Part shown: positions 15,401 through 51,801 of the stretch, one piece after another
How the letters are laid out: each line of letters begins with the position of its first letter
Position numbering within the stretch: position 1 is the first letter of the stretch
NCBI GenBank assembly: GCA_001724265.1
Contig: MEDY01000182.1
Span: 1-55,624, forward strand
Source of the DNA: Rhizaria sp. SCN 62-66
Taxonomy: Eukaryota
Direction of reading: 5' to 3'
Length of the DNA: 55,624 nt
The notes under the pieces: generated by a model
What the model was told of the DNA's origin: nothing
The model's database searches: none
The model's input: the letters and a program-made list of their open reading frames with translations, nothing else
Made by a program: the position numbers and the translations under genes

Positions 15401-18400
15401 CGTCTCAACAACGCTCATGTTGCGCATGACGGCGTGCGTGGTGTCGGCGTCGCTCTTGTTGTCCGCGCCAGCGTCCTCGCCCTCACCACCAGCCTTCTTG
15501 CTGTGGCTGGTGTCGATGATGACGGGGCTGGCTCTAGTCGCCGCCGCCGCCGCGACGGCCGCGGCTACAAGCCTGGGCGCCAACTTGCCCACCTTGTGCA
15601 GCACCGCCAGCGCCGTCGCCGCGGGGGTCGCCGTGCCCGTGACGTAGTTGGCCGCGCCCAGGTGGGTCAGGCGGAGCACGCGCGGCAGCTTGCGGCCGAT
15701 GGCGTTGACCTTGCTCACGGTCAACTCAAGCAGCAGCGGCGAGTGCGCGCTCGGGACCGCAATCAGCGCAATGGGAGGCGACGATGATGACGATGAAGAC
15801 GCGTTGCCGTTGCTCACCATTGCGCCGGCAGCAGCGCCGGCCGAGTCCGAGGCGGTACTTACACTGCTTTGAGGGGTACTTAGCCCCGTTTCGCGGATCG
15901 CGACCGCGGACACGCACGCCGACCGCGGTCCCAGCAGCCCGAGAGAGCCCGAGTCTAGACCGTCCCAGTGCCCGGCGTACACCTTGCTCGCCAGCGCCGC
16001 CAGCAGCAGCCAGCGTGGAGCGCGGGAAAAGGACGCAGCGCTGATGGTGTCGGGCAGCGCCGTGTGCGCGCGCGGCAGCAGCGGCGGGCTCGACGACGGC
16101 GCAGCAGCGGCGGCCACGGCGGCGGCGGTATTGGCGGACTCGGCCAAGGCGGACGACGACGTCAGCAGATTGGGCTTCGTCGCAGGTGCATCCGCTCCTG
16201 ATTGCGCAGTTCGGACGACGGCAGCGGCGTTCGAAGCGGACTGCGGGCTAGAACTGACCGCGATCGGAGCCCCCTCGGGGATGGGGGCAGCGGCAGCGCT
16301 GAAGCTGTTGAGGTCAAACACGTTCAAGTTATTCGCCGCATTCGCCGCCTTGTTATTACTGTTGACATTGACGTTGGGCGTGACCGGATCGTTGTTGAAC
16401 TGGGCCACACTCGACCGCCGCAGCCCGCGCGCGCGCGCCAGCGCGAGAACGGACGCGCGGGACCCGCCGGCGCTAGCGAACGCAGCCGTCTCGGCCGCGG
16501 CCAGCGCTGGGTACAACGGGGGCCGGCCGTTGCCGACAGTCGCATTCGTACTCGCACTATTGTTGTTGCAATAGAGTGAGGCGGCGTCGGCGTCGGCGGT
16601 GTCGGTCTTGACGCCAAGCTCGTCGGTGTTGTCACTGATGACGGACGCCGATGCGGCGGCGGCGGCGGAGGCGGAGGCCAGGGGGTTGCTGTACAACGAG
16701 AACCGGTGGGTCCTGGAGGCTGAAGTTAAGCCGCCAGGCGCGGTGGCAAAGATGGAGCCAGCGCGGCTGTTGCTGCGAGCGTAGATATTGCCCCCATCGG
16801 CCACGTTATCGCCGAGGTTATCGTTGGCATTGTCGCCGGAGAGCAGCGCAGAGAGGGGGTCACCGTCTTGCTCATCAGAGTCGCTCTGATTTGGCTCGAG
16901 CTCGTGCTCGTGGTCCAAATCGCCGTGTTTCGGGCTAGCGTTCGCGTACGTGCTGACGTTGCCGCCGTCGTCATCGTACACTTCATCCAAGTCGCCGCCG
17001 GTCCGCTGCGGGAAATCTTCATTCTGCATCTGCTGTTGCTGCTGTTGCTGTCGACTTGCCGCTGTGTTTGTATCGTTCATGTTCCCGTGGTTCTTCGCGT
17101 GCGACGACGCCGCCGAGGGAGGCTTGCTGTTTTGCAGCGGGGCCGGCAGCGACGGCACCGGAGGCGTCTCGGACTCGGCCACGACCGACAGCGCTGCGGA
17201 GCGATTGTTGACTGCGTACGCACCGCCGTTGGGCTCCGGAGAGTGGGTACGTGATTGTGAGCGCGAATGTGGCTGACTGCACTCTGGCGTCAGCAGCACC
17301 AGATCGTACTCGTCAGGCACCATGCCGCTACTCACATTCACACAGCTGCCGCCAGTGTAAGGGCCTCCAGTGTAAGTGCTCGGCCGCGGGGTGATGGTCG
17401 GCGTGCTGTTGTGCGGTGGCGTCGGCGGCAGTGGCAGCGGCAGACCGCGCAGCAGCGCCGTGTTGGCGTTGACGCCGATGCTGTTGGCGTTAACGCTGTT
17501 GAACGCACTACTAGCCGTGCTGATGCTGCTGTTGTTGTTGACTGTGGAGCGCCGGGGCACTAGTGTGTAGCGCTGCTCCGCGGCCGCCAGCGCGGCGAAA
17601 CTGATGCTCGTGACGGAATTCTCCCTGACCCCAGCGCCACTACTGCTGAAGTTAGCTGCATTGTTGTTGTTGCTGTTGTTGCAGCTGGAGTTGGAGTTCG
17701 AGAGCAGGAGAGACTTGCGCACGGCAGTGGTGCGCAGCGCGGCGTGGCGCGGGCACAGCGGGTCCCGACGGCTGCCCAAGTCGGGGTAACATGCGGGACA
17801 CGCGACTCTCGCACTCGCGGTCGCGGTCGCGGTGACAGCATCAGTCACGTCGCCAGCGCCGTTGCCACCTGCACTATGAGTGTGCGCGCCACTGTTTGCA
17901 GCAGCGACGGTTGATGAGCGGGGCGTGATGTGTGTGATGATGCCGCGGCCGCCGCCGAGACCGCTGCCGGCACCCGCTGGGCTCCCGGCGTTCCCCGCAT
18001 TCGTACTATGGGAGAATGCGTTGGCCGCGTTGACCGAGGCAGTGGTCGGGGTGCGCACAGTCAGAGACACGCAGTCACCACCAGCATGAGGGGCGGCGTT
18101 TCTACCACTCGTATTCGCAGACGCAGTCGCAGGTAGAGAGCTAGAGCAAGTAGTCGCAGTAAGCTGGGCACTGTTGTTGTTGGTATTGTTCGACTGAGGG
18201 AGGTAAACGCGGGAAAAAAGAGCCAGCTGCGCCTCACTTTCAATCGCACGTTGTTGTTGCTGCTGCTGTTGCTGCTGCTGTTGCTGCTGCTATTGCTGTT
18301 GCGCGAACGCTGTGTGCGGCGACAGTGGCAGCGGATCAGCGATCGACGGCATCGCGCGGGCTGCGGGCACGGCGGGAGGGCGCTGGTAAGAGCGCGCAAT

Positions 18401-18559
18401 CTCGCGGACACTACGCGGGGCAGGGTTCAGCTCCGCAGACTTGTTGCTCGCGCTGCCAGCAAGGATATTGTTGCTGTTGGCAGTGGCAGCGGTCGGCATC
18501 GGCTGGGGCTTAGAGGCGCCGATGGGGATCGCGGCAGAGGCACGGGGAGGGGAAGACAT
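9477..18559 (-). CDS. Giant VPS9-domain protein (Rab5-family GEF); exons 18559-12662 (in-frame TAG at 18292-18290), 12504-10177, 10015-9822, 9621-9477; about 2854 aa
   Basis: C-terminal VPS9 motifs: PSERVDCLLDTAKAIY, LAADDFFPIFVYVLIHA and GEAGYYLTVFEAALDYI. Intron phases match. The N-terminal ORF (18559-18290) joins ORF 18070-12581 in frame across a TAG in a poly-Q run. Stop TGA at 9479-9477. Confidence 0.85.
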
Positions 18560-19380
18560 CGCACCAGAGAGCTAAAAAAACAGCGATGGGGCAGATGCTT
18601 ATGTGGGCACGGCCGCAGGAGCAGCGCGGAACTGTGAAAGAAAGAGGAGTGTGTGGGATGGAGGCGAGTAGACACACTTGAAGAGCACAGAAAGATGTGA
18701 AGGAAGTGGGATTAGATTAGGTTACCGGAAACAAGCTGGGCATGACACAGTTCAAACTTTGTTTTAGATCCCAGTAGTATAGTCATATTTATAACGAAAT
18801 GCAGTTGCGGAATATTTGTTAACGGTTAATTCTAGGCACAAGATTCAGTATTTTGGGGTGCCAAGTCGCGACTGCCGGCATGCGACCCAAACTGTGATTT
18901 TTTGAGAACCGCTACCGTGCCAAAGCGGCAGCCACCAACGGGTCTCTGATTCATCCTTGTGGGTCTATATGCATCGCAACTTGAATATTTTTGCCTGTAA
19001 TTGAATGGCATGAGACATTTATTTTAGCGATAAATAATATTTGATTTTAGTTTCTGCCCACGATCTCTAACCAGGTTTTTCAATTGACTTTCTCTCCGTG
19101 ATTGCCCCTTGCTATTCACCTCCTCAACATTGTTTTTTGCCTCCGTCTGACGCCGTCCATAAGGCACAAATTGCCTCACCGGTATATCGCACGCTTTTCC
19201 AGTAAATAACTAGTTGTATTCCTGCTCGATTACTCGAGGTACGCGTATATTGGCTTACAGGCAGTCGTCCTAAGCTCTGGCCTCCATCTACTCTCTTTCC
19301 GACACCGCCAACGCTGACCTCCCACCTCTCTCACACCAACCAAGCGTCCACTCTCAAGGGTCCGCGCACTTGCGCCAACT

Positions 19381-20874
19381 ATGTCCGGCGTTTTTGCGCG
19401 CTACCGCAAGCTCGACACGATCGGGCGCGGCACCTACGGTGAGGTCTCGCGTGTCGTTCCCTACTCTGACACGAACCTCGTTTACGCCCTCAAGGTCGTC
19501 ACATGGAGCAACCAGGCCGAGCGCGATGCTGCGCGGAGCGAGGCTGCGCTTATGAGCTCGCTGCCGCGACACAAACGGCTTATCTGCTGTGTGGAGATCT
19601 TTGAGGACTCGGACCAGCTTGCCATGGTGCTTGAGTACGCCCCGCTCGGCGACCTCACCAGCATCATCCAGGTGCGTCACTGCATCATAGTCTCAGTTGC
19701 AACGTGTATATCTCTTATTTTTAAACTGACAACAGGCGCAGACGTGCAATTGATGCATCTCTAGACTATATTACAAATTTGACGCTTGAAACTAATCTTG
19801 ATTCTTCATTTCAACTTGTTTTCACACCTGCACACAGGCGCACCGCGACGCCCGCACTCTTCTGCCGGAGGACGTTTTGCTCCGCTACATCATCGAGCTC
19901 GCTGAAGGACTCGAGCACCTGCACAGATTCCGCACGCTCCACCGCGACGTCAAGCCCAGCAACATCTTCATCGACGCCACGGGCAGTCTGAAGCTCGGCG
20001 ACCTAGGGTTCGGTCGGACCCTCAGCATGAACGCGATTGGAACCAAGAGTCTCCACGTTGGCACACCGCTGTATTACGCGCCGTAGCTGTGTCGCGCGTA
20101 CCTGCCTCCGATCAGTCCGCAAAACCAACATCACGCACAGCAACAACAGCTTCAGCAACAGCAGCAGCCTCAGCAGCAACAGCAGCAGCATACACAACCG
20201 CAGCTTCAGCAACAACAGCAGCACTCGCAACAGTGGCAGCAATGGCAGCCTCACCTGCTGCAGCTCCAACGCCCCACTCCGACGCTCCGCGCAGCCACGC
20301 CGGTGTTGTCGCACCAGTCGAGTGGACTCGGCCACTCGCCGCACGTGTCTGCGTTCAAACTCGTCGCCCCGTCGCCGAAGCCCAACAACAGTAACAACAA
20401 CAACAACAACAACGCGGCCATGTACGTGCAATCGCCCGCGTTCACCCCGCTGCCGCCGACCGCGGCTGAGGCTGTGCCTGCGGTCGCGACTCTCGCCCTG
20501 GCCGCGGACACTGCCGCGGTAGCGACTTACTCGTACCCCATCGACATCTGGTCCCTCGGTTGTGTGGCGTACGAGCTCGCGACACTGGCCCCGCCGTTCA
20601 CTGCGTCGACGCTGCCCGAGCTTGCGTGCGCAGTCGTCCGGTCACCGACGCCGACTATCTCGACGAACATCTACTCCCACGCGCTCAGCGGCTTGATTTC
20701 TAGCATGCTGGAGAAAGACCCACAGCGCAGGCCCACGGCGGGCGCGGTGAGGCGCATTGCGACTGCGCTGCGGGAGGCATATGAGGCCCACAGTAACTGC
20801 AACGCGAGCACGAACACGGGCTCCAGTTCGGCGAACATGAACATGTACGCGATGGCAGAGACTCCGGTTCAGCC

Positions 20875-20906
<32 letters not shown>

Positions 20907-23900
20907 GGCAGCAGCAGATGACACCGACGCGGTACTTGCATCAAAGGCACTCACAGTCACCCTTAGTCGGCGGCGTCAGTCTGTTCGTCGCGCGCGCCAG
21001 CCCCCGGGGTGGGCCAGTGAAGGTGCTGTCGAACAGTCCATACCGGCCGGTGCCTTTGCCTCCGTTCGGTTCGCAACAAGGGCAATCGCTATCGCCGTCA
21101 GAGCAGCTTCAACAGCATTACGCATAGCATGTACAGCTGCAGCCGCAGCAGTTACAGCAACAGCACGGCGCATTATTATTTTATCGTCAGTCTCCTGTTC
21201 CGTCACCTCCCACAAACGACAACCCTGTCATGACCCGTATCAACAGCGCCGCATCCAATGTCATGGCGCCCGCACCTCTGCCCGTTGTTGCGAGCAATTC
21301 AGCTGGCGTACAAGTGCTCCGCAAGCCGTTCGGGGCAACGCGGCTTAACTTCAACGACCCGAAGCCGACTGTTACGCCGGCAACGCCGCGGACCGGATCC
21401 AACACTGTGAGTGCGAATGCAAACGCAGGCGTGTTTGCATCACCGTCTCAACGCTATCTTCAAGCAACTGCAAACATGGACGACATGAACTCAACCAACA
21501 ATATCAACAATAATGGCTATGCCGCAAACACAAGTGCTGTGTATTCCGGCTCCACCGCTCATGCGACTGGGAGCGATGCTCTGAATATCACGGATGCAAA
21601 TGCTGCCGACGTCTCTACGTCTGGCTTTAACACGAGTACGTTCAAGATCGTAAAGCCGATGACACAAGAGGAACGTCCTGAGATGACACCTTTGCGTTTT
21701 CCCCAACCGACGCAACAGCTCTATGGACAACAGCAAGTGCAACTGCAGCAGCAAACCCACGCATTTACTTCGTTAGCCTCTGATCATGTCGATACAAGAA
21801 CCACACAAAACGCAATGGTGATGACTGCTGCAAACGCTGCAGGTTCGACCTACGATGTTCCGACCAGTGGCGCAGCCACACACTATGGTGGTTTCGTCTC
21901 GCTCGCAACTGCCACTGCAGACATGTGGGAGGTCGACAAGACGGTGAATAGCCATGCCCACAGTGGCGCCAATAGCTGCAGCAGCAGCAATGGCGATGCC
22001 AACAGCAACCACCGTGCGAACGCGAGCAGAAGCACGAATGGCATCGACAGCTACGGCTACAACCGCGACTTTTCGTTCCGGCTGCCGATGCGCGCTGACT
22101 ACTTGAACAACGACACGGTCGTCACCGCCTCCACGAACAACACGCTCCACTCGAACGCGAACGGTTCAGTCGCTGTCAGTTTTAACACTAAGAACGCGGG
22201 CGCGAATGCGAACAATAGCTCTGGTGACAATGCCAAGGCTGTTGGCATGATCAATAACTCTCTCATCGACGTCAATAATGTTAGCACTGGGATGGGCAAT
22301 GCGGGTGTTGCCTTGCATAATGTAAGTACTGGTGCGAGTACGAGCGGCATCGACAAGTCGGCACTGCGCAGTGCGTGGCTGCAGCATATCTCTACACATA
22401 TTGTGGAAACCCATTCGGCAACATCTACTGCTGCCGGAACGAGCACGTCTAATCATGCTCTTCTGAGTCAAGCACGCGCGGCTGATACGTACAACCGCAC
22501 TGAGGCGACTGGTGGTGTCATTGGCTCCGATGACAATGCTAATGAGAACAACATGCAGACAGAGGCTGTCATGACTGTCACTCTCACTGAGCCTGTTTTG
22601 GAGACTCCCCCTCAACAAAACACGGATGTGGCCGCCAAGCACCACGACGACCAAGAGTCGCAGAATCAGCCGCAGCAGATGCTGCTGCCGCTTATCCTGC
22701 AATTGGACCAGCACTCCCCGTCCTACTCTGCCGTACCGAGCCCCTCAAACGCCCTTAACAGCTATTTGGACGGTCCTCGCAGGCCGCACTTTGCGCCGAA
22801 TCACCTCTACCCTCGCTTGGTTGAGGACCAATTTGACGACGCCGGTGTCAGTGATGCGCAGAGGGATGGCGCGATTGTTCGTCACAGCCCCGACCTAAGC
22901 GCAGTCAGTAGCAGCAGCAGCAGTGCTGACAATAGCTTTACTGCCGCTACGTACAACCGTCCGTCAGCTCCTGTTGCGTTCATGCATTTCAACGGCAACA
23001 ACAGGAGTCTTAACCATAGCAATGATGAAGAAACTGTGAACAATAGTCTTGGCAATGGGGGCTACACCAACTATCTCGCTGGCAGGAGTAGCAAGAACAT
23101 GTTCTTTGCGTTTGGCACTCCTAGTAGCACGACAACGACGACCAACTCGTCCGGAAATGGCGTTACCACGACGACCACAACCACAACGAACACGAGTGAC
23201 ACAGGAAACAACGAAGACTGCGTCAACGACGATAACGCTGATGTAAACGCAGTTGCTGTCGGGAACGATTCATCGGCTATGTCACCGTTCGGCTCCCCGG
23301 CGCCTGCGTACGTTTCTACGGCGGCCGCGGTAGCAGCTCACATGGGCGCGAAAACCGGCGAAATCGCACGCAAGTCAGCCAGGTATTCTCTGAAGGCTAC
23401 AGCCGCTGCAGCCACTGCGGCTGCGCTTGCTTCGGTTGCATCGTCCAGTATTGCAAACGCGAACAGTATCCGCAGCGCGACCGTTAGCTCTTCTTCTAAC
23501 ACTGATTTCGTGAGCACCTCTCTGTATGCTCCTGCTTCGTCTGAGATCGCTGCGAATGCTCAGTCGCTCGTCCGGTCCGAGGTTAAGCCGCGCCAGCGTC
23601 TCGTGCTGCACATGTACCAAGGTGATGACCACGACGACAACGATGATGAACGCAAGACCGATGTTGATATTGCGAGCCGTAGTGTGCGCAAGGGACTTGC
23701 TTTTGACGATGTCGATAGTGACAATGACACTGACAGAGCCATCAACACCATGCATCACGTGCACAATTCGACTGCTGCAGTCGCCGGCAACGAGAGTGAC
23801 GGTGAACAGAGTGACTGCGAGGACAACGCTGGCGTGGCTCATATTCAGCATGTCCAATATGGCCATAACGACAATGTCCACAACAGCGATGACGAAGACG

Positions 23901-26553
23901 CTGGTGATGATGACACCGCTACCGATGACGCACCTGGTGCTGATTACGGCAACTTTCCCCAAGGCAGCCGCGACGCATCTCCCGAGCGCAGCTTTGCGTC
24001 CCCTGTGCACCGCCACTCGCCACCTGACCGCCGCCACTCGACGCGTTCTCGCCCGCGCACGACCACAAAGAACAGTGACGGCAGCGTCAATGCTGTTATG
24101 AGCGATAACGCAACCGCTGTAGCGACGCTTGACACTGAGTTCGCTGCCGCTGCGTCTGCCTTGCTTGCGATCGCGCCGCTGCCCGCAGTCACGTCGACTC
24201 AGTCTGTGGTCGCCACCGCGAGTACAGTGAGCGCCGTGCCCGCAACGCCGACGCTGCCGAAGCCCGTGTCGTCATCTCCCGACTCGTCATCGAATGGCAT
24301 GCTTAGTCCTGCAGCGCGCTCGCAGTTGCGCCTGCTCCGCAAAAAGCTCACGCCGCCCACAAACAACAGCACTAACCCTGCTGAGACTGGATCTAAGCCC
24401 GTCGGCGCTGTCTCGCACTCAACTGCGCCTCAGCCTGCCGAGATGGCTCCCCTGACAGATGTTGCTAAACTTTCTGGTGCGAAGTGGCGCGCTGCGTTAG
24501 AGGCGGTCGCTTTTGGCGATGTTGATGAGGGTGCCGCAGTTGAGGCCGAGATCGAGTCTGAATACGCAGAACTATATCAGCGTAGCAACGATACTTACAC
24601 TAACAGTGTCAACCACGAGCACAACGCACAGTCACAACACTTACATCTGCGCTCACGGTCGCGGTCGCGGTCTCGTACTCGGGTCAATCTGGCTCAGCTT
24701 GATGACTACTCGCACTCGCGCTCGCGCTCACGCTCACAGTTGCAGTCTCGGTCTAGATCGCAGTCACGCTCGCAGTCGGTGACTCCCCGTATGGGTGCTT
24801 TGGTCGCGCAGATGGCCGAGCTCGAGCTTACTGCTGGCGGCTTAGGCAACATGACATCCCCGCGCCGGCGTAGCTATATCTCATCTCTGAACAACACGGC
24901 GGAGAATGCAGGTGCCGTCGACAATGGCTTGGAATCGATGCAGCTGCCGACAGTCAATAGCTACCGTGAGCTTGACGACGCTGATAGCGATGAGACTCGT
25001 GAGCATGCTGATGTCAATGACAGTGCGACTAGTGCAACTTCTGGGAACAGTACAGTACAGCTCCGGTGTTTGCTTCGCTGGCAACGTGCTCGTCCTAATA
25101 CTGCAACTGTCAGTGCTACTAATAGCGCCCTGGCTTCTACCGCAGTCTCAAGTGTTGGCCAGTCGCCGCGCCGTCACTCCGCGGTCAACACTCCCCGCCG
25201 TCCGCACACAGCGCCAAGCAACGTGCACGGTGAAACGTGTGCGATGTCGCCGCGTGGCCACAGCAGCTCTCCGAACGCGAGCACCAACCGCAGTGCAAAC
25301 AGCGAGGGAGTTGTGTCGATACCACTGACACGGTCGCAGCACGTCGACGGCGCTGACACATCTAAGTACCTTTCTTCGGGGTACTTAGACTGGGTTAGCG
25401 CTCTCATTCATCACCCTCGCGCCAACAGCACGAGCGCCAGCGTGGTTGACATGAGCAACAGCGATACTTGCAGTGAGAGCAACGTTGCCAATATGCAGTC
25501 GATGCCTGCCACGAGCACTGAGCCCGTGTTCCGCAACCGCGTCATCTACCCCTTCGCGCGCCACAGCGTCAGCTCCACTCTTGCCCGTTCGCGCCCGCTG
25601 CTGCTGCTCCTACAGACCAACGGACCCGCGCCGGACCTACTCTCGGTCCGCGTGCTCTACGGCGGCAAGCAGAGCGCGCAGCTGGCGCAGACCGCGCGCC
25701 TCTGGCCCATCCCGGTCCCGCCCTCTCTGCAGGACGCGAACCTCGCTCGCCTCGCGTCCGGTGACAGTCTTGTCGCGGTTGAGGTGCCCACGGTCGTGAC
25801 TCTGCCTGGTGAGAGCGCTGGGAACGGTGGCTGGGCGGTCCCGACTGGCATCTACCTCGAATTCGACAGGGCTAACCCGCTTAACGCGCTGGTACGTCTA
25901 ATGCACACCTGCTAGGAAGGATTTATTACGATGCCCCTATAATCTATTTATATGTATCTATACTCATGTCTTTTTTTATTGCTCACTCCTTATCACTCCA
26001 TTTTTGTGTGTGTATCTTTTAGACTGTGTTTCAAGGCCCGTCCAGCGCTCTCGACAGCTTGCAAACGCTGTCGGCCGCCGCGGTGACTCAATTCATCGCC
26101 ACTGCATCTGCGAACAAGGCGAAGCCTCAGCCCGTGCGCGCTCAGACGCAGCGTGCTGGGGTTCACTCTAACGTCGCGACACCGTTGCAGTCTGCCAGGC
26201 GGCCTGCACAGTATGGCGATGCGGGGGCGAATAAGGAGAACAGTGTGACAACGATTATGGTGCCGGCGTCGGCTCGCAAGCCAACATTGGGCAGTAACAA
26301 CACGGTGAGCGTTATTCGCGACACTGCTGCCTCGAGTAAGACTGTTAAGAATCTCGACGATAACGCTACTGCACGCACACCGATGCGCACGCTCTCGAAC
26401 GCGAACTCCAACGCAAACAGCGTTAGCACCAACTTCACGAACAGCAACGGCATGACTACTCCACGGAAGACGGTTAATGTTGCCATCAGCAACAGCACTC
26501 AAAAGAACACCAACAGCATCACTCTCAACAGTGCGCGCAAGGCATGGTTATAA
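19381..26553 (+). CDS. NIMA-related (NEK-family) Ser/Thr kinase with a long low-complexity tail; exons 19381-19671, 19838-25891 (in-frame TAGs at 20084 and 21125), 26023-26553; about 2291 aa
   Basis: Kinase motifs IGRGTYG, YALK, HRDVKPSNIF, KLGDLG (DLG occurs in NEKs), GTPLYYAP, DIWSLGCVAYELATLAPPF and MLEKDPQRRPTA. ORF pieces 19877, 20303 and 21230 share one frame and are separated only by TAG. Stop TAA. Confidence 0.88.
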
Positions 26554-26670
26554 GATCATCTGCGACACTAATGTATTCTTGCTCGGGAATCGTAATCATG
26601 GTTGACGAGTGAGCTCGTGCTCGTTTACTTGGATGTGGGATTTAAGTTTAATTAATGCACAGATTCTTGT

Positions 26671-29600
26671 TTAACTTAAGTCAGAGTACTGGCTGTTGTC
26701 GTTGTTGACATCAACGCTGCCACTCGCCGTTTCCGCGCCGACAGCAGTTGTGTTGACTGCCGCTGTTGTGATGTTATCGCTGTCAGTCATCGGCACTGTG
26801 TTGCTGCCGACACTATCACCCACACTTGCAGCTGCGCTTTCGTTTGCAGTATTTTGCGCGCTGCTCGTGTTTGTTGTGTGAAGGTTGTCGGCTCTGGTGT
26901 TCGTACCTATAGCTGGCTCCGTTGCTTGTGCGGTAGGTTTGCGTTTGTACAGCGCGCCAGCACTCCCGTGAAACGATCCAATCCCGCTCGTTGGGGCGTT
27001 ATATTGTGGCTGCTGCTGCTGCTGCTGTTGCTATGAAGGCTGTTGTACAGGTTGTTGCTGCTGCTGTTGTTGGTGTTGCTGCTGCATGGCAGCTGTGTCG
27101 GTGAACGTGCTCCTGCTGGAGGCCCAGCCAGACCCAGCGCCGACAACAGGGGCAGCCACACGTGCAGGCGCTGCCGCAGCAGCCGCTGCTGCAACCGCTG
27201 CTCCCGCCTTCTGCTGATGCCGCGGTGCCTTAGTTGTCGTAGCCGCAGTTGGCACAACGCGCTGCTGCTGTTGGAGAGGATGCTGCTGCTGTGGCTGCTG
27301 TTTGGCGACGAGGCCGGACTGTAGCGGTAACAACCGTTGCATAGCCTCGACCGCGGTTGCGACTGACCCTCGACGCTGCCACCGCCACCCGCAAAGCCCC
27401 CCAACTGTCGTAGGTTGCGGAGCTTCTGGAAACTGTGCTGCGTCGATGAGCAGGCTGGCCGCGTCAGTCGTGACTGGGGTAGCTGACAGAGTGTGTGCGA
27501 CGATGTTTGCAGCAGCGTCAGCGATGGCCCTTGTCACTGAAGGGGTCGCCGTAGATGTGGTTGCTGCACTGTCATAAATGCTTGCATGTGTGCTTGTAGA
27601 AGTGCTCGCGGCACCGAAAGGCAGGATAAGCGATGACTCACGCAACGGCTAGTTGTTTTAACATATCGATCACAACGAAAATCGAGGCGTACTTTTCGTT
27701 AGACAGACAATCACGATATTACGTACGAATGATATTTTAGTTTTTTAGTTTTCACTTAGACATTTTAAGAATTTGATCTTTTAACCGCTCGTGCAATGGT
27801 AATAGAAACACTCTTTTCATATCGTACGGACCCGAATGATCGCTTCGTTCTCAGTCGCTACAATGACGTAGCGACTGATATACGGTAACTCGCGCCCGGT
27901 CGTGCCTGCTGCGGCACCGACCCAGCCAGCTCCTCCGCTGTACTCACAGTCACTCTGCGACTGGATTTGGCCTTGAGGGTCGACAAAGTGCATGTGACCC
28001 GCAGGATTGTGACTGCCCCACAGCACAGCGGCGCCGCTCTGATCCCTCGCCCTTGTCACAGCGGATGTAAGCACCCTTAGACTGGCCGACTCCACCACAA
28101 GCGCCTCACCCGACAGAGCCAGCGCGCGCAGCAGGGCTCGCCCAGCCTCCGCTTGCGCTGCCAGCGCGGCTGACCCGCCAGTGGCTTCGTCCTCGGCGTC
28201 GGCGACTGTGGCGACGGCAGCTGCAGTGAGGTCAAGCGGGGTCGTTTCATCGTTGCCGCCGGCACGAGCGCTGCCGTTTGCGGCAGCGCTGTGACCGCTT
28301 AAGCCACGGTGACTGCTACTCCAAGCACTTGATGATGTCCCGTGGGCGCTAAAGTGCCCTTGAGCAGTGTTCGCCAGTGCGCTCGCGCTCGCGAGAGACC
28401 GTGGAAATGCTCCAGGTGGCAGCAAGCCAATTGTAAGCGGCAGCGGCTATCCAGGCGCGGCAGTCACAGTGGCACCGGCTGAGATGCCAACTGCAGGCGC
28501 CAGCAAACCTGCGACGGAAACGCCGTCAGACAACGCACAGTCACGCGCCTGCGATTGCATCTTTGAGACAGATACAAAACCACTTGCTGCGCTGGCCCCA
28601 ACCCCAGCGCCAGCACTCGCGACCGCAGCGGCACTTGCACTGGCGCCAGAACCCGTGTATGCGTGTACACCTGGCGTGGTTGTTGCAGGCAAAAACGATG
28701 ACGTTGACAACGCAGCTACAGCGGCTGTGCCCCGCAGTGCGCTCGCTGTCAGCGGAACAATTGCTACCACAGGCTCCGTGAGGTACATCGTGGGTAGCAA
28801 AGAGCGGGGCAAGCGAGCGACAACGACAGCTTGTGCGGCGGCAGGCGCAGATGGCAACGCAATCGCCTCTGTAGCAGGGCTCTTGTGCACAGCATCGGTG
28901 TGACCGCTCTGGTTTGCTAGAGAGAGATCCAAGCCGTCGTTGTCACTGTCACTGCCGTCCGTATGCGTACCGACAGAAGCATCTTGCAAACTAGAGTCGG
29001 CATTGTCACGAGTATTGGATGGAATGTTCTCATTGTTCAGATAGAGTGCTTTGTCGAGAGCCGTTGCATCAAAGCTCAGGCACGATTCCTCAGAAAATGT
29101 GTCGTGTCCATCACTAAGGTAGCCGTTTTGGCTGCGTATGTCCTTCTCTGCAATTAGCGCAGCGGGTGACCCTGAGAAAGCAAGTGCTACGCCTTGAACT
29201 GACTCAGCTAAGCGGGCACGCTTACCGGTCACACTACAGTACCTGACACTGCCGCAGCCGATACCACTCACGGGCGCAAGCACGCTGGGATTGGAAATTG
29301 TTGTTGCACCTGTACTAACGGTGTCAAGCTCGTTGCTACTGCTACTACTGCTGTTTTTGCTTGCTGTTGCGCCTGCACTGCTGAATATATGTGTGGAAGT
29401 GGCTGGAAGGCGTGAGCTCGCGTGTGTATGTAAAGGCTGCCGATGACAAGCGCATAATAGAGTCTCGGTAACATTAGGCGCTGGCAGCGTTAGTGCAGAC
29501 GGTAGAAGTGTGAAGTCACAGTGAAATTCGTGCATGTTGCTGTGTGTTGCAGGAGCCTGGTCATCGGCCGCTGCGCATGAGCTGGACTAAGCACTGTTCG

Positions 29601-31331
29601 GAGCATGTGTGTCATTGTCTTGATATGGGAAATGAAGCCGGAAAAGCCGTGCAGTGCAGTCCCTACAGAAAATTAAAAAACAATGAAGAATCCAATATGG
29701 TGACTAATATTGAGAAGTATTTCTTACATGTTGAATTGTTCGTTCAAACCTGTGCTTAAACCGTACGTACTGTTTGAAACGGGTCACTTCGCTCATCTGC
29801 GCAAGTGCGACCTGGTCGCTCACACAGTCAGTGATAGTACTGACTGGGTTTGACTGCGAGTAGTGGGAGCCACGGCAACGAAGGAAACCCATGCTCAGTG
29901 ACTTCTGGTCGAAGTTAGACTGCGTTGTTAAACTACCGGAACTGACGGACAATGGCTGAAAGTCAGAGTTAAACTCACCATCTGTCAGCGGCGGTAGCGT
30001 ACTCAAGAACGTATTGAAAGATCCCGCAGCCTCTATCTCACGACGCATATGTTCAGCCGTGCTACCTGATCCGCATGTGTCATACAGTGTGCCTGTACCG
30101 ATGCTCCCATTTGTGTCGTACTTTGCATCGTCAGTCTCGTTGTTGTACGCTCTTACGCTGCGACTACTCGTGTCGGTATCGCTCGTGTTTGTCGCGATGC
30201 GGCTTGACTTCAAGTAGTACTCCGCCGGCGTGGGAACAGCAAGGAAGCTCAAGCGTGTTGCAGGCGGCTCCAAACCAAACGCCCAATCATATGGACCAAC
30301 GGGTAAACTAACGCTAATGCTCGCGTGTGTGTTGCCGCTGAACCCACCCTTGCTCTTCGAGCCTCCACGTCCTGATGGTGTCGTCGTGGTGTTTGTGGGC
30401 GTGTGACTAACGGTGTTCGTATCAGCAGACACCAGACCAGGATGCATTATCGAGGACGCGGATGATGATAAACGAGTCTTGCTGGCAACTGCTGTGGCAA
30501 ACGCATTGGCTTGGCTTTGAGGCAAGAACTGGCACGCAACAGTAAGCTGCGGTTCTTGCTCATCAACAGCACCACCCGCACTCGCACTTGCAGTTGCGCT
30601 TGACCGTTGGCCTTGGGTCGGGATAGCGTTCCCATTGGTGGCATGACTGCATGTCTTTTGAACGCAGAGTAGAGGGCTAATGATGGTGGCGTTGGTACCC
30701 ACAGTCACATTCGCGGCCCACACTGCAGCACTCGCACTCGACGCCAGTGCGGCCGCAGCCAGAGCGTGGTTCCTCTGCTCTAGATACCTCGACAACTCGC
30801 GCAGGGCCTCTGGCAACAGCTCAGCGCTAGATGCAGATACCGGCGCGCCACTTCCGCTGTAAGCAGTGAGTGTCGATAGAAGTGATGTTGATGACGCTTG
30901 CGGGAGCGGTGACACCCGCAAAAAGCCGGCAGGCAGCGTGCGCGCCTTGACCGAGGCAGTAAAGTTCTTGAGGGCGGAACAGCTGTTGAACAACGACGCG
31001 CCTGGAGGAAAAACCCAGTATAACCCTCCCTCCGCCGCGGAGGGTGTAGGAGGACAAAGAAACGCGAAGGCAACGTCGACGAGCGAGCCAGGGGACGCAG
31101 ACTTGAGGATAACACATCGTGCGAAAAGAAAAGATGATAGATCCTCGGATAGAGTCTGAAAACATCGAGAGGTATGCACAAGTAATCACATGAGTGCTTG
31201 AAATAAACCGTAGATAATGAGTCGCGAGCAGTATGGTTGCGAAGACGAACCTCGAGCATCATGTTGTGGTCGGCGAGAGAGAGTGTGCTGCCGGACGCAG
31301 GAGGGCGCACATCAAGGATAATTAGATCCAT
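26671..31331 (-). CDS. Hypothetical low-complexity protein; exons 31331-31251, 31155-29771, 29662-27832, 27648-26671; in-frame TAGs at 29589-29587, 28449-28447, 27033-27031; about 1424 aa
   Basis: ORF fragments join in frame through GTNCGT-AG introns and three TAGs, ending at TAA 26673-26671. No family recognised; exon 1 is less certain. Confidence 0.65.
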
Positions 31332-31850
31332 GGCTTTCTGAGTCTTGTTAAAACAAAAAGCTTTACTATGGATGCTGAGAGCGGAGTATGTGTTTCAAGA
31401 GGTCAAAGGGATCACCTTTGGGACTGACTTGAAGAAGACGGCGCGAAACGACTGTGTGCGAACAACAAAATCCAGAATACACACGGATAAAAACAGCCAT
31501 ATAATTAGACACCAACACAATACTATGTCACTATGTGTTGGGTAATTTATCCAGCTGTTGACCTTTCTGTCGGCCCACACTTTAAGTTGGAAGACGAATA
31601 GTTTTATGCGACGACTGATTTTTCAAGTTGGAACGGAACGACTGTGAGCACTTGAGACCAGAAAAGAATACGTTGATATATCTTCTTTGCTATCGTCAAT
31701 AGCGCTAAAACTTGTGCAGAAAGTTTCAATTAAACCAAACTCTTTCCTTCTTCAACCTCACAGTTATCAATTCTATTCCTATCGCACACTTGCCGCTCGC
31801 ATAACAGCCGGAAGCATCGAAAGGACGTAGGCCCGCTCTTCTTTGCCGCC

Positions 31851-34800
31851 ATGGCTTTCTTCGATGCCATGGGCAACGCCATGTGCCGCCTCATTGCCAC
31901 GTTAGATAGCAACAAGCCGGCAGCTCAGTACCCCGCTGTCATTGCCGCTAGCGAAATCGTTGGCGCTCTTGATCTCGCTTCGCCGTCATCCGAAGTCCAG
32001 GCAGCGTCGCCTGTTGCAAGCACTTTAACACTAAACTTGTGCGGGGCCTCGGGGGAGCTCGCACGTGCAGCACAGATTCTGCTAGACGCACATGTGTGTT
32101 TGGCTCCTGTTACCTTGGCACTTCCTGTTGTATTTCATGCTGACCGTAACACTCATTCAAGCGACTGCGTAACTAACTCCAGCTACAACGCGAGCGTTGA
32201 CAACTCGAGCTCCAGCTCCTTGTCATCAGCACATCCAACAACAAATCGGTACTTGTAGCCTTGCCTTGCGTTGCGCCAGCAGTTCCCGCTGTCGCTTCCG
32301 AGTTAGCATAACCAGCTGCGACAGCAAGCGCTGGTGCACACTCAGGCGCAGCGGCGCGCAAACGACGCTGGTCCCGAGGCGACTGCAAAGCTTGCAAAGG
32401 CCCGCGCAGAGGCAGAATCGCAACTGCGGGTAACTGTTAACAGCAGCACTATTGCCCCACATTTTTACGCGTTTCGCTACTACGCAAATCCTAGCACTCA
32501 CGGCACAGATTTCAGGAGTCAAACTACTTCGGCTGATGATGGTGTAACGGTTTCAGCGGTGGCGGCGGCAGCCGCAGCAGCTGGGCGCGTGCTGGTACCC
32601 CTGCCGTCTGTTACCGAGTGGCTGCAAAGCAAGAGCAACATGGGTCGTGTCGTTTCTGCTTCTTGCAGCTCATCGCAGCTATTGTCGTACAGCTCTCGCG
32701 TGGTCGTGAGTTACAGTGCGGGCGATGCCGCTTTGTGTTGCAACGTTGGCTGCAGCAGCCAAGAAGAGGCTGACGCCGAGGCGGAGGCTGTTATTGCAGC
32801 TGATATTGCACGGGAGCAAATGGAGCTAAAGCGGGCATCAGACGTGTCTAAAGGGACAGTTCATTGTTACACAGTAGCCTCACTTGCGGCATACGGCCCC
32901 TCACGTGCGACTGCAGCTTATGACGCGCGCCACGGTCATGGCGGCATTACTAACAGTAGTGGCCCAGGACACAACAACACGGGCTTAAACTCGAGCGGTG
33001 TTTGTACAACAGCAGAGAGCGAGGGCGACGCCAACAGCAGTTTACTGCAGCTGAACAGCCGATTGCAGTCACAGATGCAACATGAGCAGCAGCGGCAACT
33101 CCAGCTACTTGACTACCATCAGCAACGATTGTACCTCCGGCAACAGCAACAAAGCGCAAGTGATATTAAGTCCTCGTCATGGTTCCTATCGCGTGTGAAG
33201 TCCTTTTTCTCTTTCAGCAATGATAATAATACTAGCAGTGGTTGTTTGACTGACGGAAGCAGCGGTGACAGAAACCATGGCAAGAACGTCACATATCAGT
33301 CCCACGTCGCTGCCAGTGCGCTAGGTCTGGCGAATGTTTTTAGTCAACGTGCCAACTTAGCTGTGGGCGGCGGGCCACCGCGCGATGCAAGTGGTGGACT
33401 TGGTAGAATTGACCGTGAGCATTGCCAGATTCAGCAAGACGAAGAGGAAGAAGATGGCCTCTATAAGGGTGACAAGGGTGAAGGGCTACGGTTGCAACCG
33501 CCTCTGAAGTCCCACCAAAATGGAAATCTGCAGTCGCCGCCAAAGTCACAGCCCTATTCACGGTCACAGTCACCGTCATCACTGCCACCACCCTCTTCTC
33601 ACAGTGGCTCGCGCGCGCTATTGCAGCGGCAGTTAACACCGAGTTGTACGTCTCAGTCCACTGCAAGCCCTCTGTCGCGCGTTAGCCACATTCACTCTGA
33701 CATCGTATCAGGCGCCGCAGCCGGCGGTCATCCCGCCAGCTCAAGCAGTCTTAGACAGTTTGAGGTTGAGCTTACTGCGCAACGGCTGGCCGCGACAGAT
33801 GGTGTTATTGTGATCGAAGGGCGCCGCTTTTACACCAAGCCTATTCCAGCATCTTTGTTGCCCCAGCAGCAACAACAGCAAGAGAAACCTTAGCAGCATG
33901 AGTGCAAAAGTGGTGACGCAGTGACAGCGCTTAAGACTCAAAACCCCGGTCTTGCGCTTGCTATCGAGCTAAACAATAGTTTGAAAAGCTTTGGCAATGG
34001 TAGCAGCGGCGCGCCTAATAACGGGAGTGGTGCGGGCAAGAGCCCCGCTGTGGGGCAGCAGTTGACTGCTGCAATGTCGGTTGCGCAGGCTTGTGCTGGC
34101 ACGCACCCGGGCCTGTCGCTTGCATCGATTGCTGTTAGTGGGGCACTCAAAGCTGTCTGCGCTCACAGCGACATTAATAATAACATGAACATGGGTGTGA
34201 AAGGTTTTCCTAGTCTTGTTAGAGCTCCGAGTGCTGCAGGCCTTGTGGTTAATGTTTCTAGCGTTGCATCTGTAGCAGCTAATAGTGCAGTTAGTGCAAA
34301 GGCACCAAGTCTATCCACGCCTGTTGCAAATGACGCTCAAGCAGCGACGTTACGCCGCGGAGTGCACACAGGTACTGAGCACATTGAAGGCCTCTCACAG
34401 TTACCGAAGCACCTGCCTCCTGCAATCCCCTTGCATTTACCGCCGGGTGCATGCCAACTGCTGAAACCGCTTCCATCCCTCATAAACTACATTGATCCTG
34501 ACATGACAAGCTTGACCAGAGGCATGTGCATGAGTACAAGTACGGTGGAAGTGCTCACGGCAACTGAAACGACTGTGACGCCTCCGGGCACCACGACGCG
34601 CTTTAGCGTTGACGATGCCCGCACTGTCGCTACTGCTATTGAGCAAGCTTGCGCGGAGGCAGAAGCAGCGGCAATAGACACAGTGGCATCCGTTGCAGCT
34701 GCTCTTACCTGTGGTAACTGTGCGGCATACTCTAACTCAAGTGCTGCAAGCACTCGCATTGACCGCAACATTGACAGCGCCGTAAGTGACGCTAGCGCTA

Positions 34801-37800
34801 GCGCTGGGCGTCAGAGACCCAACACATGTGAGGACGACGAGGAGGATGGTGTTATCCGCACCATCAGCGATTGCGGAAGCACAAACACAAACGCACCCGC
34901 TCAAATTGCGATGACTAAAGCACAATTGCAACAGCGTATGTCTCGATTGCTCAGTGTGGCTGCCACGAGGAGTGCGAACTTGAGTCCGGTTCTGCACGGC
35001 GTTCCAGCAACGGAAACACCAAGCGAAGGATTGGCTAATGTGTGCTTGTGTAAGTGGTACTGCGCTCCCGTCTTTGCCGAGCCAAAGGCTTCGAAAGCCG
35101 TAGCAAATGCAAGCGCGGCCAGCACAACTAGGACGCATATCAACGCCACTGCCTCAGCAGCGGATGTGAGGACCTCTACGGCAGGTGCTGAGGATGAGCA
35201 AGAGGGCCAGGCTAAGGAGTATCATGGCAGCAAGCCTATCAGCAGAAGTCGCTGCGAGTGCACCGACAGTGAGAGCTGGGTTGAAACAGCGGCGCGCACT
35301 CTTGACTTTGCAAACAAGGTCATCAGCACATCAATCCACAATACTCATACTTTTCGTTTCGACAATGCAGTTGCTACCGCGGGCAATTATATAGCGCCAC
35401 CAATGGTCGAACCTTGTGCAAAAAACGCTCCGACCCGCAGCCATAAAAACGTTGCGCCTGACAGCTATTGTAAAACTGTTTGGAAGAGCGTCGAACGCTG
35501 CACGACTAGCGGCGCTAGTGACGACGAGAAAGAGGACGGTCGTGGTGAGAGCAGCATATTCTCAAAGACGACTTTGACACCAGCGGAAAAAGCTGTGCAA
35601 AACAACAACAATGACCACTCTTGCCGCGGCGGGTGGCGCAAGGAAAATAACAATGTGCAGGCTTTAAAGACGACTGAGACTGACGTGCATGCTCAGTCAA
35701 GTCCAAGCACAGATGATGAGGTAGAGACTTTCTCAACTCCAGAGTCAACATCATCTTCACTCACACCCGTTCGTAGCCTAAGTCTACAGTGTGCTGCTCC
35801 TAAGACGAAGTTCAACGTCTCTTACTCGGTCGCAAGACACCCGTCTACGCACCACATCAACGCGACAGGCAATGGTCGGGGTCGTACGAGTAGCCTGAGT
35901 AAGGGATCAGTGGCTGTTGAAACTAAGCATAGCGGTGGTCATGGCGCCGACGCTTGGCGCCACTTTGTTACCCCTCCTTTGCACTCTGTCCCCGCTCCAC
36001 TTTCAACACAAACTGCAAAAAACGGCACCGCTGCAAGCAGTAAAGGTAATATCAATGGCGAGTGCAATGCGGCTAGCGCCAAGCAGGGCAATGCAGATGC
36101 AAATGTGTCGAGCGTAAGCTCTAACACAAAGCCTGTCAACAACAAGACTGCTTCGCCGTCCCAGCTTGACAGGTCTCATACAGACTGGAGGCCTGAGTAC
36201 TTGTTCACACTTCTCAACTCGCAGTGCCCATGCGCAGCTGCGTTTGAGTCACCAATTGGTGCGTTGCTTACAGTTACAAGTACGTGTGCATGTGCACAGA
36301 GGTACTTTGCAACACTTGCGTCTCTCAAACTCACTAACGACGCAGGCACAAGCCCAAGCACTGGCATCCGTAGTTCAGATAACGACAAGATATATAGTAG
36401 CCACACATCATCTCTGATTCGTGCTGAAACGGACAGCTGGCACTGTGACGAGATTGCAACTGTAACAGTGCCGTTGTCTGATGTGAGAGTTACTCTCCAA
36501 GAACTAGGAACGTGGCTTGTTTGGCACCCTCCTGTTCTACCTCTACCAACGGTGACTTTCTCTGGTGACGGATGCGCAGCAGCGAATGCGCACACGAATA
36601 AGAGCGGTACTGATTGCAAGGTAGCAGCTGCGCATAACGGTGACTTTGGCGGTAAGAGAGTCGTCAAGAAGAAGCTGTCAATATGGGGCCACATCAAGGC
36701 AGCCTTTGGTTTTTCCCGCAGTCCGTCCAGCGTTGACAGCAACTCGGGTCAACTCAATAATAGTCGGTTACCTTATAGCGTAAGTTCACAGTTTCATCCT
36801 GTGTCACCGGCCGTTTGCACCAAGACTGCTGTGGGGCAACTGTCTGTGTCATCTACAAAGGGCCCTGGTATAGCCGCTGGTGGTGTCGTCAGCCGGGCCA
36901 AGCCGTTGCCACTGTCTCTCATAACTACGCCTCCTTTGTCGGCATCCGGCGGCTGCACAAGCGCAAAACAAGAGAGCTCGTCGTTAAGTGGGAACATGGA
37001 CTTGCGTACACTCCATTGCAAACCAATAGAGGCGTGCGCAACGCTTGCCCTGACACTGCGGCGGCCCACAACAGCGGTCTGCACAGCAGCACTAGTTAAT
37101 GCCGCAACCGCTTCAGTGATAGAGTCTAACGCGGTCGCGCAAGCACATCAACAGCAACAACAACAGCAGCAAGCGCAGGCTCAATCACAAGCGCAATCGC
37201 TGCGATCAAGACTGTTCTTTTCTAAGCCTGCTGCAGTATCTGCGCCTGTAAGTGCAGCAGCTTTGGGCACATCAATTGCAGGGGTAGCTGGCAATGCCCT
37301 CCCCTTGCACCCGGTTTGGTCTGTGGTTGCAACAGACGCTGTCATCACCGCTGCTCGCAGGCGACTTGACTTGACCAATCGCGTACGGCAGACGGCAGCC
37401 AGTGCCTCGGCGCTGCTGTCGCTAATAATGGCAAAGTCCCGTGCAGCGAGATGCAAGGAGGCGTTTCACGCTCTTAAAGTCACCACTGCAAACAAGGATA
37501 CGAAAGATATTGATGCAGCGGTTTGCGACGCCGCCATTCATGCAGCGGCTGCAGTAGATACTTTCACCACCGCAACATCCGCGTTCTTGCAGTTGCCCGT
37601 AATACCATGCGCACTGGCGTGGGGGCCGGACACGACTGAATCGTCGCTGAGCGTGAGCACGCTGCAGCACTGCAACGAGCCTGTTGGCGCCGGGACAGGT
37701 AAGGTTACCGGCGAAGCGGTAGTTAGTGGCATTGGCTCAACTCAGCAGACTGGGGCAAATGTGACCGCAGTGAGTTGTGGCGCAGCACCTGAGATGACAA

Positions 37801-51753: not shown

Positions 51754-51801
<48 letters not shown>

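What the first reader, a model, noticed from the sequence alone, without database searches (positions are those of the whole stretch)
18290..33893. Non-standard nuclear genetic code: UAG is a sense codon (probably Gln) while UAA and UGA remain stops
Seen in sequence: nine in-frame TAGs in four genes on both strands, at 18290-92(-), 20084-86(+), 21125-27(+), 27031-33(-), 28447-49(-), 29587-89(-), 32256-58(+), 32304-06(+) and 33891-93(+). In every case the same frame continues open, and in two genes it reaches conserved domains (kinase subdomains IX-XI; VPS9). No in-frame TAA or TGA occurs in the reconstructed exons, although CAA codons are abundant and random decay should also create TAA. All nine visible gene ends are TAA (rps26, sdhC, ABCF, BPI, NEK, the 26671 gene, TPS) or TGA (VPS9, CaaX gene); none is TAG. 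Established knowledge: UAA and UAG are nearly always reassigned together. Decoupled UAG-only codes are rare (Gln in the fornicate Iotanema, Leu in an uncultured rhizarian, Leu or Gln in some phyllopharyngean ciliates). Inference: this aerobic, intron-rich protist may be another independent UAG reassignment, implying a tRNA with a CUA anticodon and an eRF1 that poorly recognises UAG.
Basis: partly seen in the sequence, partly recalled or inferred. Interest (0 to 1): 0.96.

Follow-up and report, generated by a model that had tools for sequence, protein, structure and literature searches.

The report
UAG read as sense codon
An uncultured, intron-bearing microbial eukaryote from wastewater reactors appears to translate the stop codon UAG as an amino acid while still stopping at UAA and UGA, a rare kind of genetic-code change; which amino acid is inserted is still open.

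Summary
All nine TAGs are at the stated places and in frame. Eight sit in exons with no plausible in-frame intron; 29587 could lie in a longer alternative intron. In 8,034 codons of the four TAG-bearing genes there are 9 TAG, 0 TAA and 0 TGA in frame, against 49-230 of each in the other frames. All nine gene ends are TAA (7) or TGA (2). Contigs from two other studies carry the same TAGs, one of them a strain with about 0.5% SNPs. TAG 20084 lies inside a kinase domain with homology on both sides. TAG 18290 lies upstream of a VPS9 domain. So UAG is very probably a sense codon.

"Probably Gln" is not established. The only TAG at a conserved column aligns with the invariant Glu of the kinase APE motif, which is E in 249 of 249 homologues. 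The poly-Gln contexts can be explained by CAG>TAG mutation alone. TAG is rare (1.1 per 1,000 codons), absent from the high-GC3 conserved genes, and followed by C in 8 of 9 cases. That pattern hints at an incomplete or context-dependent reassignment. The lineage is unnamed. No tRNA or eRF1 could be reached.

The parts
18290..18292 (-). In-frame TAG, codon 90 of the VPS9-domain gene, inside an 18-residue CAG/CAA poly-Gln run
   Evidence: Lies 89 codons after the ATG at 18557-59 and is followed by 1,902 open codons. Not covered by an independent contig (repeat skipped).
20084..20086 (+). In-frame TAG in the NEK-like kinase domain, at the Glu position of the APE/SPE motif
   Evidence: Homology continues on both sides (GTPLYYAP-TAG-LC against GTPLYFSPELC). 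The aligned residue is E in 249 of 249 homologues. Kept in X3 and X4 contigs.
21125..21127 (+). In-frame TAG, codon 527 of the NEK gene, in a Gln/His-rich stretch
   Evidence: no in-frame intron candidate; X3 and X4 keep it. Public gene calls break the gene here (P0006 ends, P0250 starts).
27031..27033 (-). In-frame TAG at the start of a poly-Gln run in the last exon of the 26671-31185 gene
   Evidence: X3, X4 and X5 contigs cover it unchanged.
28447..28449 (-). In-frame TAG in a GC-rich exon (63% GC within 60 bases either side) of the 26671-31185 gene
   Evidence: X3 and X5 contigs cover it.
29587..29589 (-). In-frame TAG; exonic under the best intron model, but removable by a 189-nt in-frame alternative intron
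   Evidence: The only one of the nine followed by T rather than C. Weak coding score around it.
32256..32258 (+). In-frame TAG, codon 136 of the CaaX-ended gene
   Evidence: X3 contig and a poly(A)-library contig (32058-32454, no differences, colinear) cover it.
32304..32306 (+). In-frame TAG, codon 152 of the CaaX-ended gene
   Evidence: Same calls and same contigs as for 32256.
33891..33893 (+). In-frame TAG, codon 681 of the CaaX-ended gene
   Evidence: X3 and X4 contigs keep it.
9477..18559 (-). VPS9-domain gene: giant low-complexity exon 1, exon 2 (10177-about 12502), two short VPS9 exons, stop TGA
   Evidence: Donors GTACGC/GTACGT. Pfam VPS9 pieces at E 4e-4 and 2.5e-5.
19381..26553 (+). 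NEK-like kinase gene, 3 exons, about 2,291 codons, stop TAA
26671..31185 (-). Low-complexity gene with no Pfam family, at least 3 exons, stop TAA; its 5' end was not determined
31851..40508 (+). 2,885-codon low-complexity gene ending in the CaaX-like box CNIM, then TGA
29663..29770 (-). 108-nt in-frame intron (GTACGT...TTCTGTAG, 31% GC) that holds TAG 29704, which is therefore not a sense codon
25892..26022 (+). Last NEK intron; it holds TAG 25913 and TAA 25940, so neither is the gene's end
2545..2547 (-). TAA stop of ABCF3; homology to the 78%-identical relative P0127 ends exactly here

Best explanation
The nuclear genes of this uncultured eukaryote are translated with UAG as an amino-acid codon, while UAA and UGA still terminate. 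Shown: TAG occurs inside coding exons of four of nine genes, including a catalytically intact kinase domain. TAA and TGA never occur in frame. Every gene end is TAA or TGA. The TAGs are fixed in populations from other studies. Inferred: a tRNA with anticodon CUA decodes UAG, and eRF1 has lost part or all of its UAG recognition. The inserted amino acid is unresolved. My odds, conditional on sense reading, are about 45% Gln, 40% Glu and 15% other. The codon is still rare and sits in weakly constrained, lower-GC3 genes, so the reassignment may be young or incomplete.
For: 9 of 9 TAGs verified. In-frame counts are 9 TAG, 0 TAA, 0 TGA in 8,034 codons, against 49/115 TAG, 50/113 TAA and 125/230 TGA in the two other frames. 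P(all nine nonsense hits are TAG) is 0.002-0.004. No frameshift occurs in frames of up to 2,924 codons. TAG 20084 is flanked by kinase homology on both sides, and kinase subdomains IX-XI follow in the same frame. The gene with TAG 18290 splices in phase to exons that encode a VPS9 domain. 9 of 9 gene ends are TAA or TGA, and the ABCF3 end coincides with the C-terminus of a 78%-identical relative. Contigs of another study (X3) cover 8 of 9 sites with no difference. A strain with SNPs (X4) keeps 5 of the 5 sites its listed pieces cover. None of the listed variants touches a TAG, and none of the 33 in-frame SNPs is a nonsense change. Eight of nine sites have no AT-rich in-frame intron candidate.
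Against: Only 55.6 kb could be examined. TAG is strongly under-used in frame (9 against 49-115 off frame). It is absent from 4,481 codons of TPS, BPI and ABCF3 exon 1. Only one TAG falls in a conserved column. 8 of 9 TAGs are followed by C, the weakest termination context by recalled knowledge, which could mean termination still competes. No tRNA(CUA), eRF1, peptide or proven mature mRNA evidence exists. The poly(A)-library contigs also cover a probable intron region (27687-27938) and the 18709-19094 spacer, so they may be DNA or pre-mRNA. Three variant rows were not shown.
Confidence: 0.78

Rival explanations
1. UAG has a dual meaning. It is still recognised as a stop in some contexts or near mRNA ends, and is read through efficiently where followed by C. 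This would be an ambiguous, intermediate code rather than a clean reassignment.
For: 8 of 9 in-frame TAGs are followed by C. P is 5.6e-5 against all codon starts (23% C), 0.035 against codons after Gln, and 0.023 against off-frame TAGs. TAG is rare and absent from high-GC3 conserved genes. Context-dependent stop/sense codes are on record for ciliates and Blastocrithidia (abstracts listed).
Against: 0 of 9 gene ends use TAG. The excess of C is only marginal against composition-matched controls. Three TAGs in one gene would demand very high read-through at each.
Confidence: 0.12
2. The TAGs are corrected in the mRNA by RNA editing (U-to-C giving CAG, or A-to-I giving UGG) before a standard-code ribosome reads them.
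For: The exclusiveness of TAG would fit fungal-type A-to-I editing, which favours UAG (recalled knowledge, no call).
Against: The poly(A)-library contig over 32256 and 32304 shows no difference from the DNA, though it is not proven to be mature RNA. Trp or Gln at the invariant APE Glu is not seen in 249 of 249 homologues. The ABCF3 tree puts the organism away from the two fungal rows.
Confidence: 0.03
3. The TAGs lie in unrecognised in-frame introns and are spliced out, so the code is standard.
For: Four other in-frame TAGs do lie in introns or a leader. 29587 can be removed by a 189-nt GTACGT...CCAG intron.
Against: For the other eight sites, no in-frame GT..AG candidate with intron-like composition exists; the one candidate listed, at 32256, is 48% GC and was set aside. 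Local GC is 50-63% against 31-40% in verified introns. TAG 20084 is flanked directly by conserved residues. 18290 and 27031 are inside CAG/CAA runs.
Confidence: 0.03
4. The four genes are decaying pseudogenes in a standard-code genome.
For: All TAG-bearing genes are fast-evolving and low-complexity. Only 12 of the 33 in-frame strain SNPs are synonymous.
Against: No TAA, TGA or frameshift occurs in 8,034 codons, and P(9 of 9 TAG) is 0.002-0.004. The other invariant and nearly invariant kinase-domain columns of alignment A1 are intact, and so are the VPS9 pieces. The splice sites are kept in phase.
Confidence: 0.02
5. The TAGs are assembly or sequencing errors.
For: None found.
Against: Independent contigs of other studies agree at 8 of 9 sites.
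Confidence: 0.01

Closest known systems
NCBI translation table 15 (Blepharisma nuclear code; TAG=Gln, TAA and TGA stops)
   Same: Same stop-codon pattern. The four genes read open under it.
   Different: Gln is not demonstrated here; the one conserved column calls for Glu. The organism is GC-rich with 65-220-nt spliceosomal introns. That this is unlike a ciliate is my judgement; no ciliate rows were in the tree.
Iotanema spirale (fornicate), UAG=Gln with UAA kept as stop
   Same: UAG decoupled from UAA in a non-ciliate protist (passages of PMC11687900 and PMC5304391).
   Different: This organism has a nuclear sdhC, so it is aerobic by inference. Relationship is unknown, the amino acid is unresolved, and the codon is far rarer here.
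Uncultured rhizarian exLh (UAG=Leu), Scotinosphaera (UAG=Ser), phyllopharyngean ciliates and Protocruzia (UAG=Gln or Leu)
   Same: UAG-only reassignments with UAA retained as stop (passages of PMC11687900).
   Different: Leu or Ser at the APE Glu position is not seen in any of 249 homologues. No evidence of kinship.
Uncultured ciliate with UAA=Lys and UAG=Glu; Blastocrithidia and peritrichs with UAR=Glu
   Same: UAG read as Glu, which is what the single conserved column suggests (passage; abstracts listed).
   Different: In those codes UAA is also reassigned. Here UAA ends 7 of 9 genes and is never in frame.
Amoeboaphelidium protococcarum (aphelid), UAR=Gln
   Same: A non-ciliate, non-photosynthetic protist with stop-to-sense reassignment (passages).
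   Different: Both UAA and UAG are reassigned there. Here the ABCF3 sequence does not group with the fungal and animal rows.

Membership tests
UAG-only stop-to-sense nuclear codes (UAA and UGA retained) | UAG occurs in frame inside well-supported coding exons, including conserved domains | tested here: met
   Eight robust sites and one uncertain site in four genes. One is inside a kinase domain with homology on both sides.
UAG-only stop-to-sense nuclear codes (UAA and UGA retained) | UAA and UGA are absent in frame and are used as terminators | tested here: met
   0 TAA and 0 TGA in 12,515 codons. 7 TAA and 2 TGA gene ends. The ABCF3 end is confirmed by homology.
UAG-only stop-to-sense nuclear codes (UAA and UGA retained) | UAG is not used as a terminator | tested here: inconclusive
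   0 of 9 gene ends use TAG. Nine genes are too few: P is about 0.1 if TAG had an ordinary share of about 20%, which is my assumption.
UAG-only stop-to-sense nuclear codes (UAA and UGA retained) | A cognate tRNA with anticodon CUA | not testable with these tools
   No tRNA in the window (ARAGORN; Rfam). No genome is held. The collection scans gave no further DNA of the organism.
UAG-only stop-to-sense nuclear codes (UAA and UGA retained) | eRF1 N-domain changes that weaken UAG recognition | not testable with these tools
   eRF1 is not in the window and no other contig of the organism could be reached.
NCBI table 15 (UAG=Gln) | TAG aligns with Gln at conserved columns | tested here: inconclusive
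   Only one conserved column is available, and it is Glu in 249 of 249 homologues with the motif (266 examined, 17 without the motif). Poly-Gln context is Gln-like: 2 of 9 TAGs are embedded, against 21% of Gln codons and 0.3% of Glu codons. That comparison is confounded by CAG>TAG mutation.

The most novel reading that the evidence does not exclude
UAG encodes glutamate while UAA and UGA remain the only stops. I found no record of this nuclear code in my searches (passages). It would occur in an unnamed eukaryotic lineage known only from environmental sequences, and would be caught at an intermediate stage: the codon is rare, confined to weakly constrained genes and almost always followed by C.
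Probability: 0.33. Interest if true: 0.92.

Novelty: new member of a known kind. Interest (0 to 1): 0.8.

Why it matters
UAA and UAG nearly always change meaning together, and only a handful of lineages are known to have split them (passages of PMC11687900). Another case, in a GC-rich, intron-bearing, apparently aerobic protist that is common enough in wastewater reactors to yield contigs over 170 kb, would add an independent data point on how a single stop codon is captured. The rarity of the codon and its sequence context make the ambiguous-intermediate idea directly testable. There is also a practical consequence. Standard-code gene callers already split these genes at the TAGs in public protein collections: P0260, P0006 and P0250 are three pieces of the one kinase gene.

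Tried and rejected
No whole genome is held for the window.

Attempts to get more DNA failed. The one metagenome scan, with the BPI protein, returned only a 2.3-kb fragment of the same organism (L001), so the contig could not be extended. The one genome-contig scan, with the relative's ABCF3 (P0129), returned 38 bacterial loci, mostly 22-32% identical in the best segment. None was a relative.

Searches for orthologues that would show what relatives carry at the TAG sites failed. The near-length search, the longer-length search and the full representative search found only the organism's own fragments plus kinases at 56% identity or less. None showed similarity outside the kinase domain.

Naming the lineage failed. 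Cluster look-up gave no organism names. Two Atlas searches gave only broad family hits. The ABCF3 tree used 41 of the 120 listed hits; the other 79, unnamed or redundant, were left out. It puts the window in a starred clade of 7-10 unnamed environmental sequences with no named taxon inside.

Pfam found nothing in the 27817-31185 frame, the CaaX gene or the other low-complexity ORFs.

Self-BLAST of 243-nt windows around the nine TAGs found only CAG-repeat matches and no paralogue to compare codons with.

I considered poly-Gln context as evidence for Gln and rejected it as confounded. Interruptions of Gln runs are single-step neighbours of CAG (His, Pro, Arg, Leu), so a TAG there is expected whatever it encodes. 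Codon-usage scoring is unreliable at CAG repeats because the shifted frames read as Ser or Ala codons.

Read-laying gave no cover of 18290. No poly(A)-library contig was listed over seven of the nine sites. No contig was seen to skip an intron. Expression and splicing therefore remain unshown.

Literature searches for a wastewater or activated-sludge protist with a changed code found nothing relevant. The giant-virus catalogue paper mentions alternative codes in sludge viruses, but not this organism (passages).


Full report
WHAT THE WINDOW IS. The 55.6-kb window is nuclear DNA of an intron-bearing eukaryote. It encodes ribosomal protein S26e, a succinate dehydrogenase cytochrome b subunit and an ABCF3-type ATPase, and a BPI-like protein. 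It also encodes a fused trehalose-phosphate synthase/phosphatase, a NEK-like kinase and a VPS9-domain protein.

Exons are GC-rich and full of Ala/Ser/Asn/Gln low-complexity sequence. Introns are 65-220 nt, 31-40% GC, and start with a strikingly uniform GTACGT (or GTGCGT, GTACGC). No tRNA or other known RNA gene is present.

No whole genome is held. Near-identical sequence is found in bioreactor, wastewater and activated-sludge runs of several studies.

CHECK OF THE OBSERVATION. When only TAA and TGA count as stops, they lie in frames of 2005, 2046, 328, 1122 and 2924 codons.

I rebuilt the gene models.
- The kinase gene starts at ATG 19381 and has introns at 19672-19837 and 25892-26022. It ends at TAA 26551-53. 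The second intron's best acceptor puts the last exon exactly into the open frame.
- The gene with TAG 18290 starts at ATG 18557-59. It splices in phase (GTACGC...GCGCAG) to the 10177-12502 exon, then to two short exons. These match positions 41-64 and 77-103 of the Pfam VPS9 profile (E 4e-4 and 2.5e-5; each is below the gathering score on its own). The gene ends at TGA 9477-79.
- The TPS frame splices into the 40845-44126 frame and ends in TAA.

IS IT MORE THAN CHANCE? In 8,034 codons of the four TAG-bearing genes there are 9 TAG, 0 TAA and 0 TGA in frame. The two other frames of the same DNA hold 49 and 115 TAG, 50 and 113 TAA, and 125 and 230 TGA.

If the TAGs were random nonsense mutations, the codon make-up predicts that 50-54% would be TAG. 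The chance that all nine are TAG is then 0.002-0.004. There is also no frameshift in frames of up to 2,924 codons.

I searched each site for an in-frame GT..AG intron with a donor like the verified ones and intron-like composition. Seven of the nine had no candidate. The single candidate at 32256 has 48% GC and I set it aside. Only 29587 can be removed, by a 189-nt alternative to the better 108-nt intron at 29770-29663.

INDEPENDENT SEQUENCE. Contigs of a run from another study (X3) cover eight of the nine sites without any difference. A run from a third study (X4) differs from the window by about 0.5% SNPs, and its listed pieces keep TAG at the five sites they cover. None of the listed variant rows touches a TAG; three rows were not shown. 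None of the 33 SNPs that fall in these frames makes or removes a stop; 12 are synonymous. Site 18290 lies in a CAG repeat that the tool skipped.

A contig from a poly(A) RNA library runs colinear and unchanged over 32256 and 32304. However, contigs of that library also cover the spacer at 18709-19094 and a probable intron region at 27687-27938. I therefore do not count it as proof of mature mRNA.

WHICH AMINO ACID? Only one TAG falls at a conserved column. In the kinase, GTPLYYAP-TAG-LC aligns with GTPLY[MF]SPE-xC in 11 of 11 homologues (alignment A1), and with SPELC in P0251.

I examined 266 fetched kinase homologues. Of these, 249 had a recognisable motif, and all 249 have Glu at that position. 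Every other column reported as invariant or nearly invariant in A1 is intact in the window's kinase, including the Arg that (from recalled knowledge of kinase structure) pairs with this Glu. That argues for Glu, or for an unusual tolerated Gln.

On the other side, TAG's neighbourhood looks like that of Gln codons. Two of nine TAGs are embedded in poly-Gln, against 21% of Gln codons and 0.3% of Glu codons. The next codon starts with C in 8 of 9 cases, against 54% after Gln and 23% after Glu.

This comparison is confounded. Interruptions of Gln runs in these genes are the one-step neighbours of CAG (His, Pro, Arg, Leu). A young, rare codon one transition away from the abundant CAG will therefore appear in Gln-rich, weakly constrained sequence whatever it encodes. 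Weighing precedent (Gln is the commonest outcome) against the conserved column, I put Gln at about 45%, Glu at about 40% and others at about 15%.

FURTHER FEATURES. TAG is rare: 1.1 per 1,000 codons, about 2% of Gln-plus-TAG codons. It is absent from 4,481 codons of the high-GC3 genes (TPS, BPI, ABCF3 exon 1; GC3 0.85-0.90). It occurs in genes with GC3 0.53-0.78.

Eight of nine TAGs are followed by C, and the exception is the doubtful 29587. The excess is strong against all codon starts (P 5.6e-5) but marginal against composition-matched controls (P 0.02-0.04). Together these features fit a young or incomplete reassignment in which termination may still compete. They are hints, not findings.

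WHO IS IT? The ABCF3 protein has a 78%-identical, transcript-like relative in a JGI data set (P0127). With it, the window's protein sits in a starred clade of 7-10 unnamed environmental sequences, apart from all named rows: animals, fungi, choanoflagellate, green algae, diatoms, ochromonad, haptophyte, labyrinthulomycete, dinoflagellate, jakobid, heterolobosean, trypanosome. The tree used 41 of 120 hits. No source gives an organism name. Independence from known reassigned lineages therefore cannot be judged.

COMPARISON WITH WHAT IS KNOWN. UAG-only reassignments with UAA kept as a stop are on record for Iotanema (Gln), a rhizarian (Leu), Scotinosphaera (Ser), phyllopharyngean ciliates (Gln, Leu) and Protocruzia (Gln). 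One ciliate reads UAA as Lys and UAG as Glu (passages of PMC11687900; passages of PMC5304391). NCBI table 15 is the formal TAG=Gln code. If the amino acid is Gln, this is a new bearer of a known code. If it is Glu with UAA and UGA as stops, I found no record of that combination in my searches.

VERDICT. UAG as a sense codon is the best explanation (0.78). Gln is not established. The mechanism (tRNA-CUA, altered eRF1) is inference only.

Noticed in passing
window 2548-5798 (-), 19672-19837 (+), 25892-26022 (+), 29663-29770 (-), 10176, 9821: Splice donors are unusually uniform. GTACGT occurs at 3 of 3 ABCF3 introns and at several others (GTGCGT or GTACGC at the rest). Introns are 31-40% GC inside exons of 55-75% GC.
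   Followed up: partly
window 20087-20530 (+): The NEK-like kinase carries an in-frame insert of about 150 residues, rich in Gln, Asn and Pro, between the APE motif and the DIWSLG helix. None of the 11 aligned homologues has it.
   Followed up: partly
window 40845-54467 (-): The trehalose-phosphate synthase/phosphatase is a giant gene. A 3,432-codon exon with long low-complexity inserts is spliced to a further 1,093-codon Ala/Gly/Ser-rich exon. It has GC3 0.85 and no TAG at all.
   Followed up: partly
window 4104-5783 (-): ABCF3 has a long N-terminal extension whose middle looks Tudor-like by eye. Pfam gives no Tudor hit for the window's protein, but relatives P0129, P0147 and P0151 carry PF00567 in their precomputed lists. 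The architecture seems typical of an unnamed environmental clade.
   Followed up: partly
window 1-55624: GC content swings from 47% to 75% over a few kb. The TAG-bearing genes sit in the 52-60% part (18-42 kb), except that the VPS9 gene's exon 1 runs down into the 65-68% GC stretch (12.6-18 kb). The flanks at 42-55 kb are 70-75%.
   Followed up: no
window 18290-33893: In-frame TAGs lean towards the 5' parts of the long genes (codons 90; 180 and 527; 136, 152 and 681). The last 2,204 codons of the CaaX gene have none. With nine sites this is only suggestive.
   Followed up: no
window 20200-20260 (+): TGG (Trp) codons interrupt a Gln run (QQWQQWQ). They are two transitions from CAG, via CGG or via TAG.
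   Followed up: no
window 18709-19094 and 27687-27938: Contigs from a poly(A) metatranscriptome library cover an intergenic spacer and a probable intron region colinearly. That library therefore holds DNA or unspliced RNA of this organism.
   Followed up: no
proteins P0260, P0006, P0250: Public protein collections hold the kinase gene as three separate 'proteins' that end or begin at the two TAGs, showing how standard-code gene calling fragments this organism's genes.
   Followed up: yes
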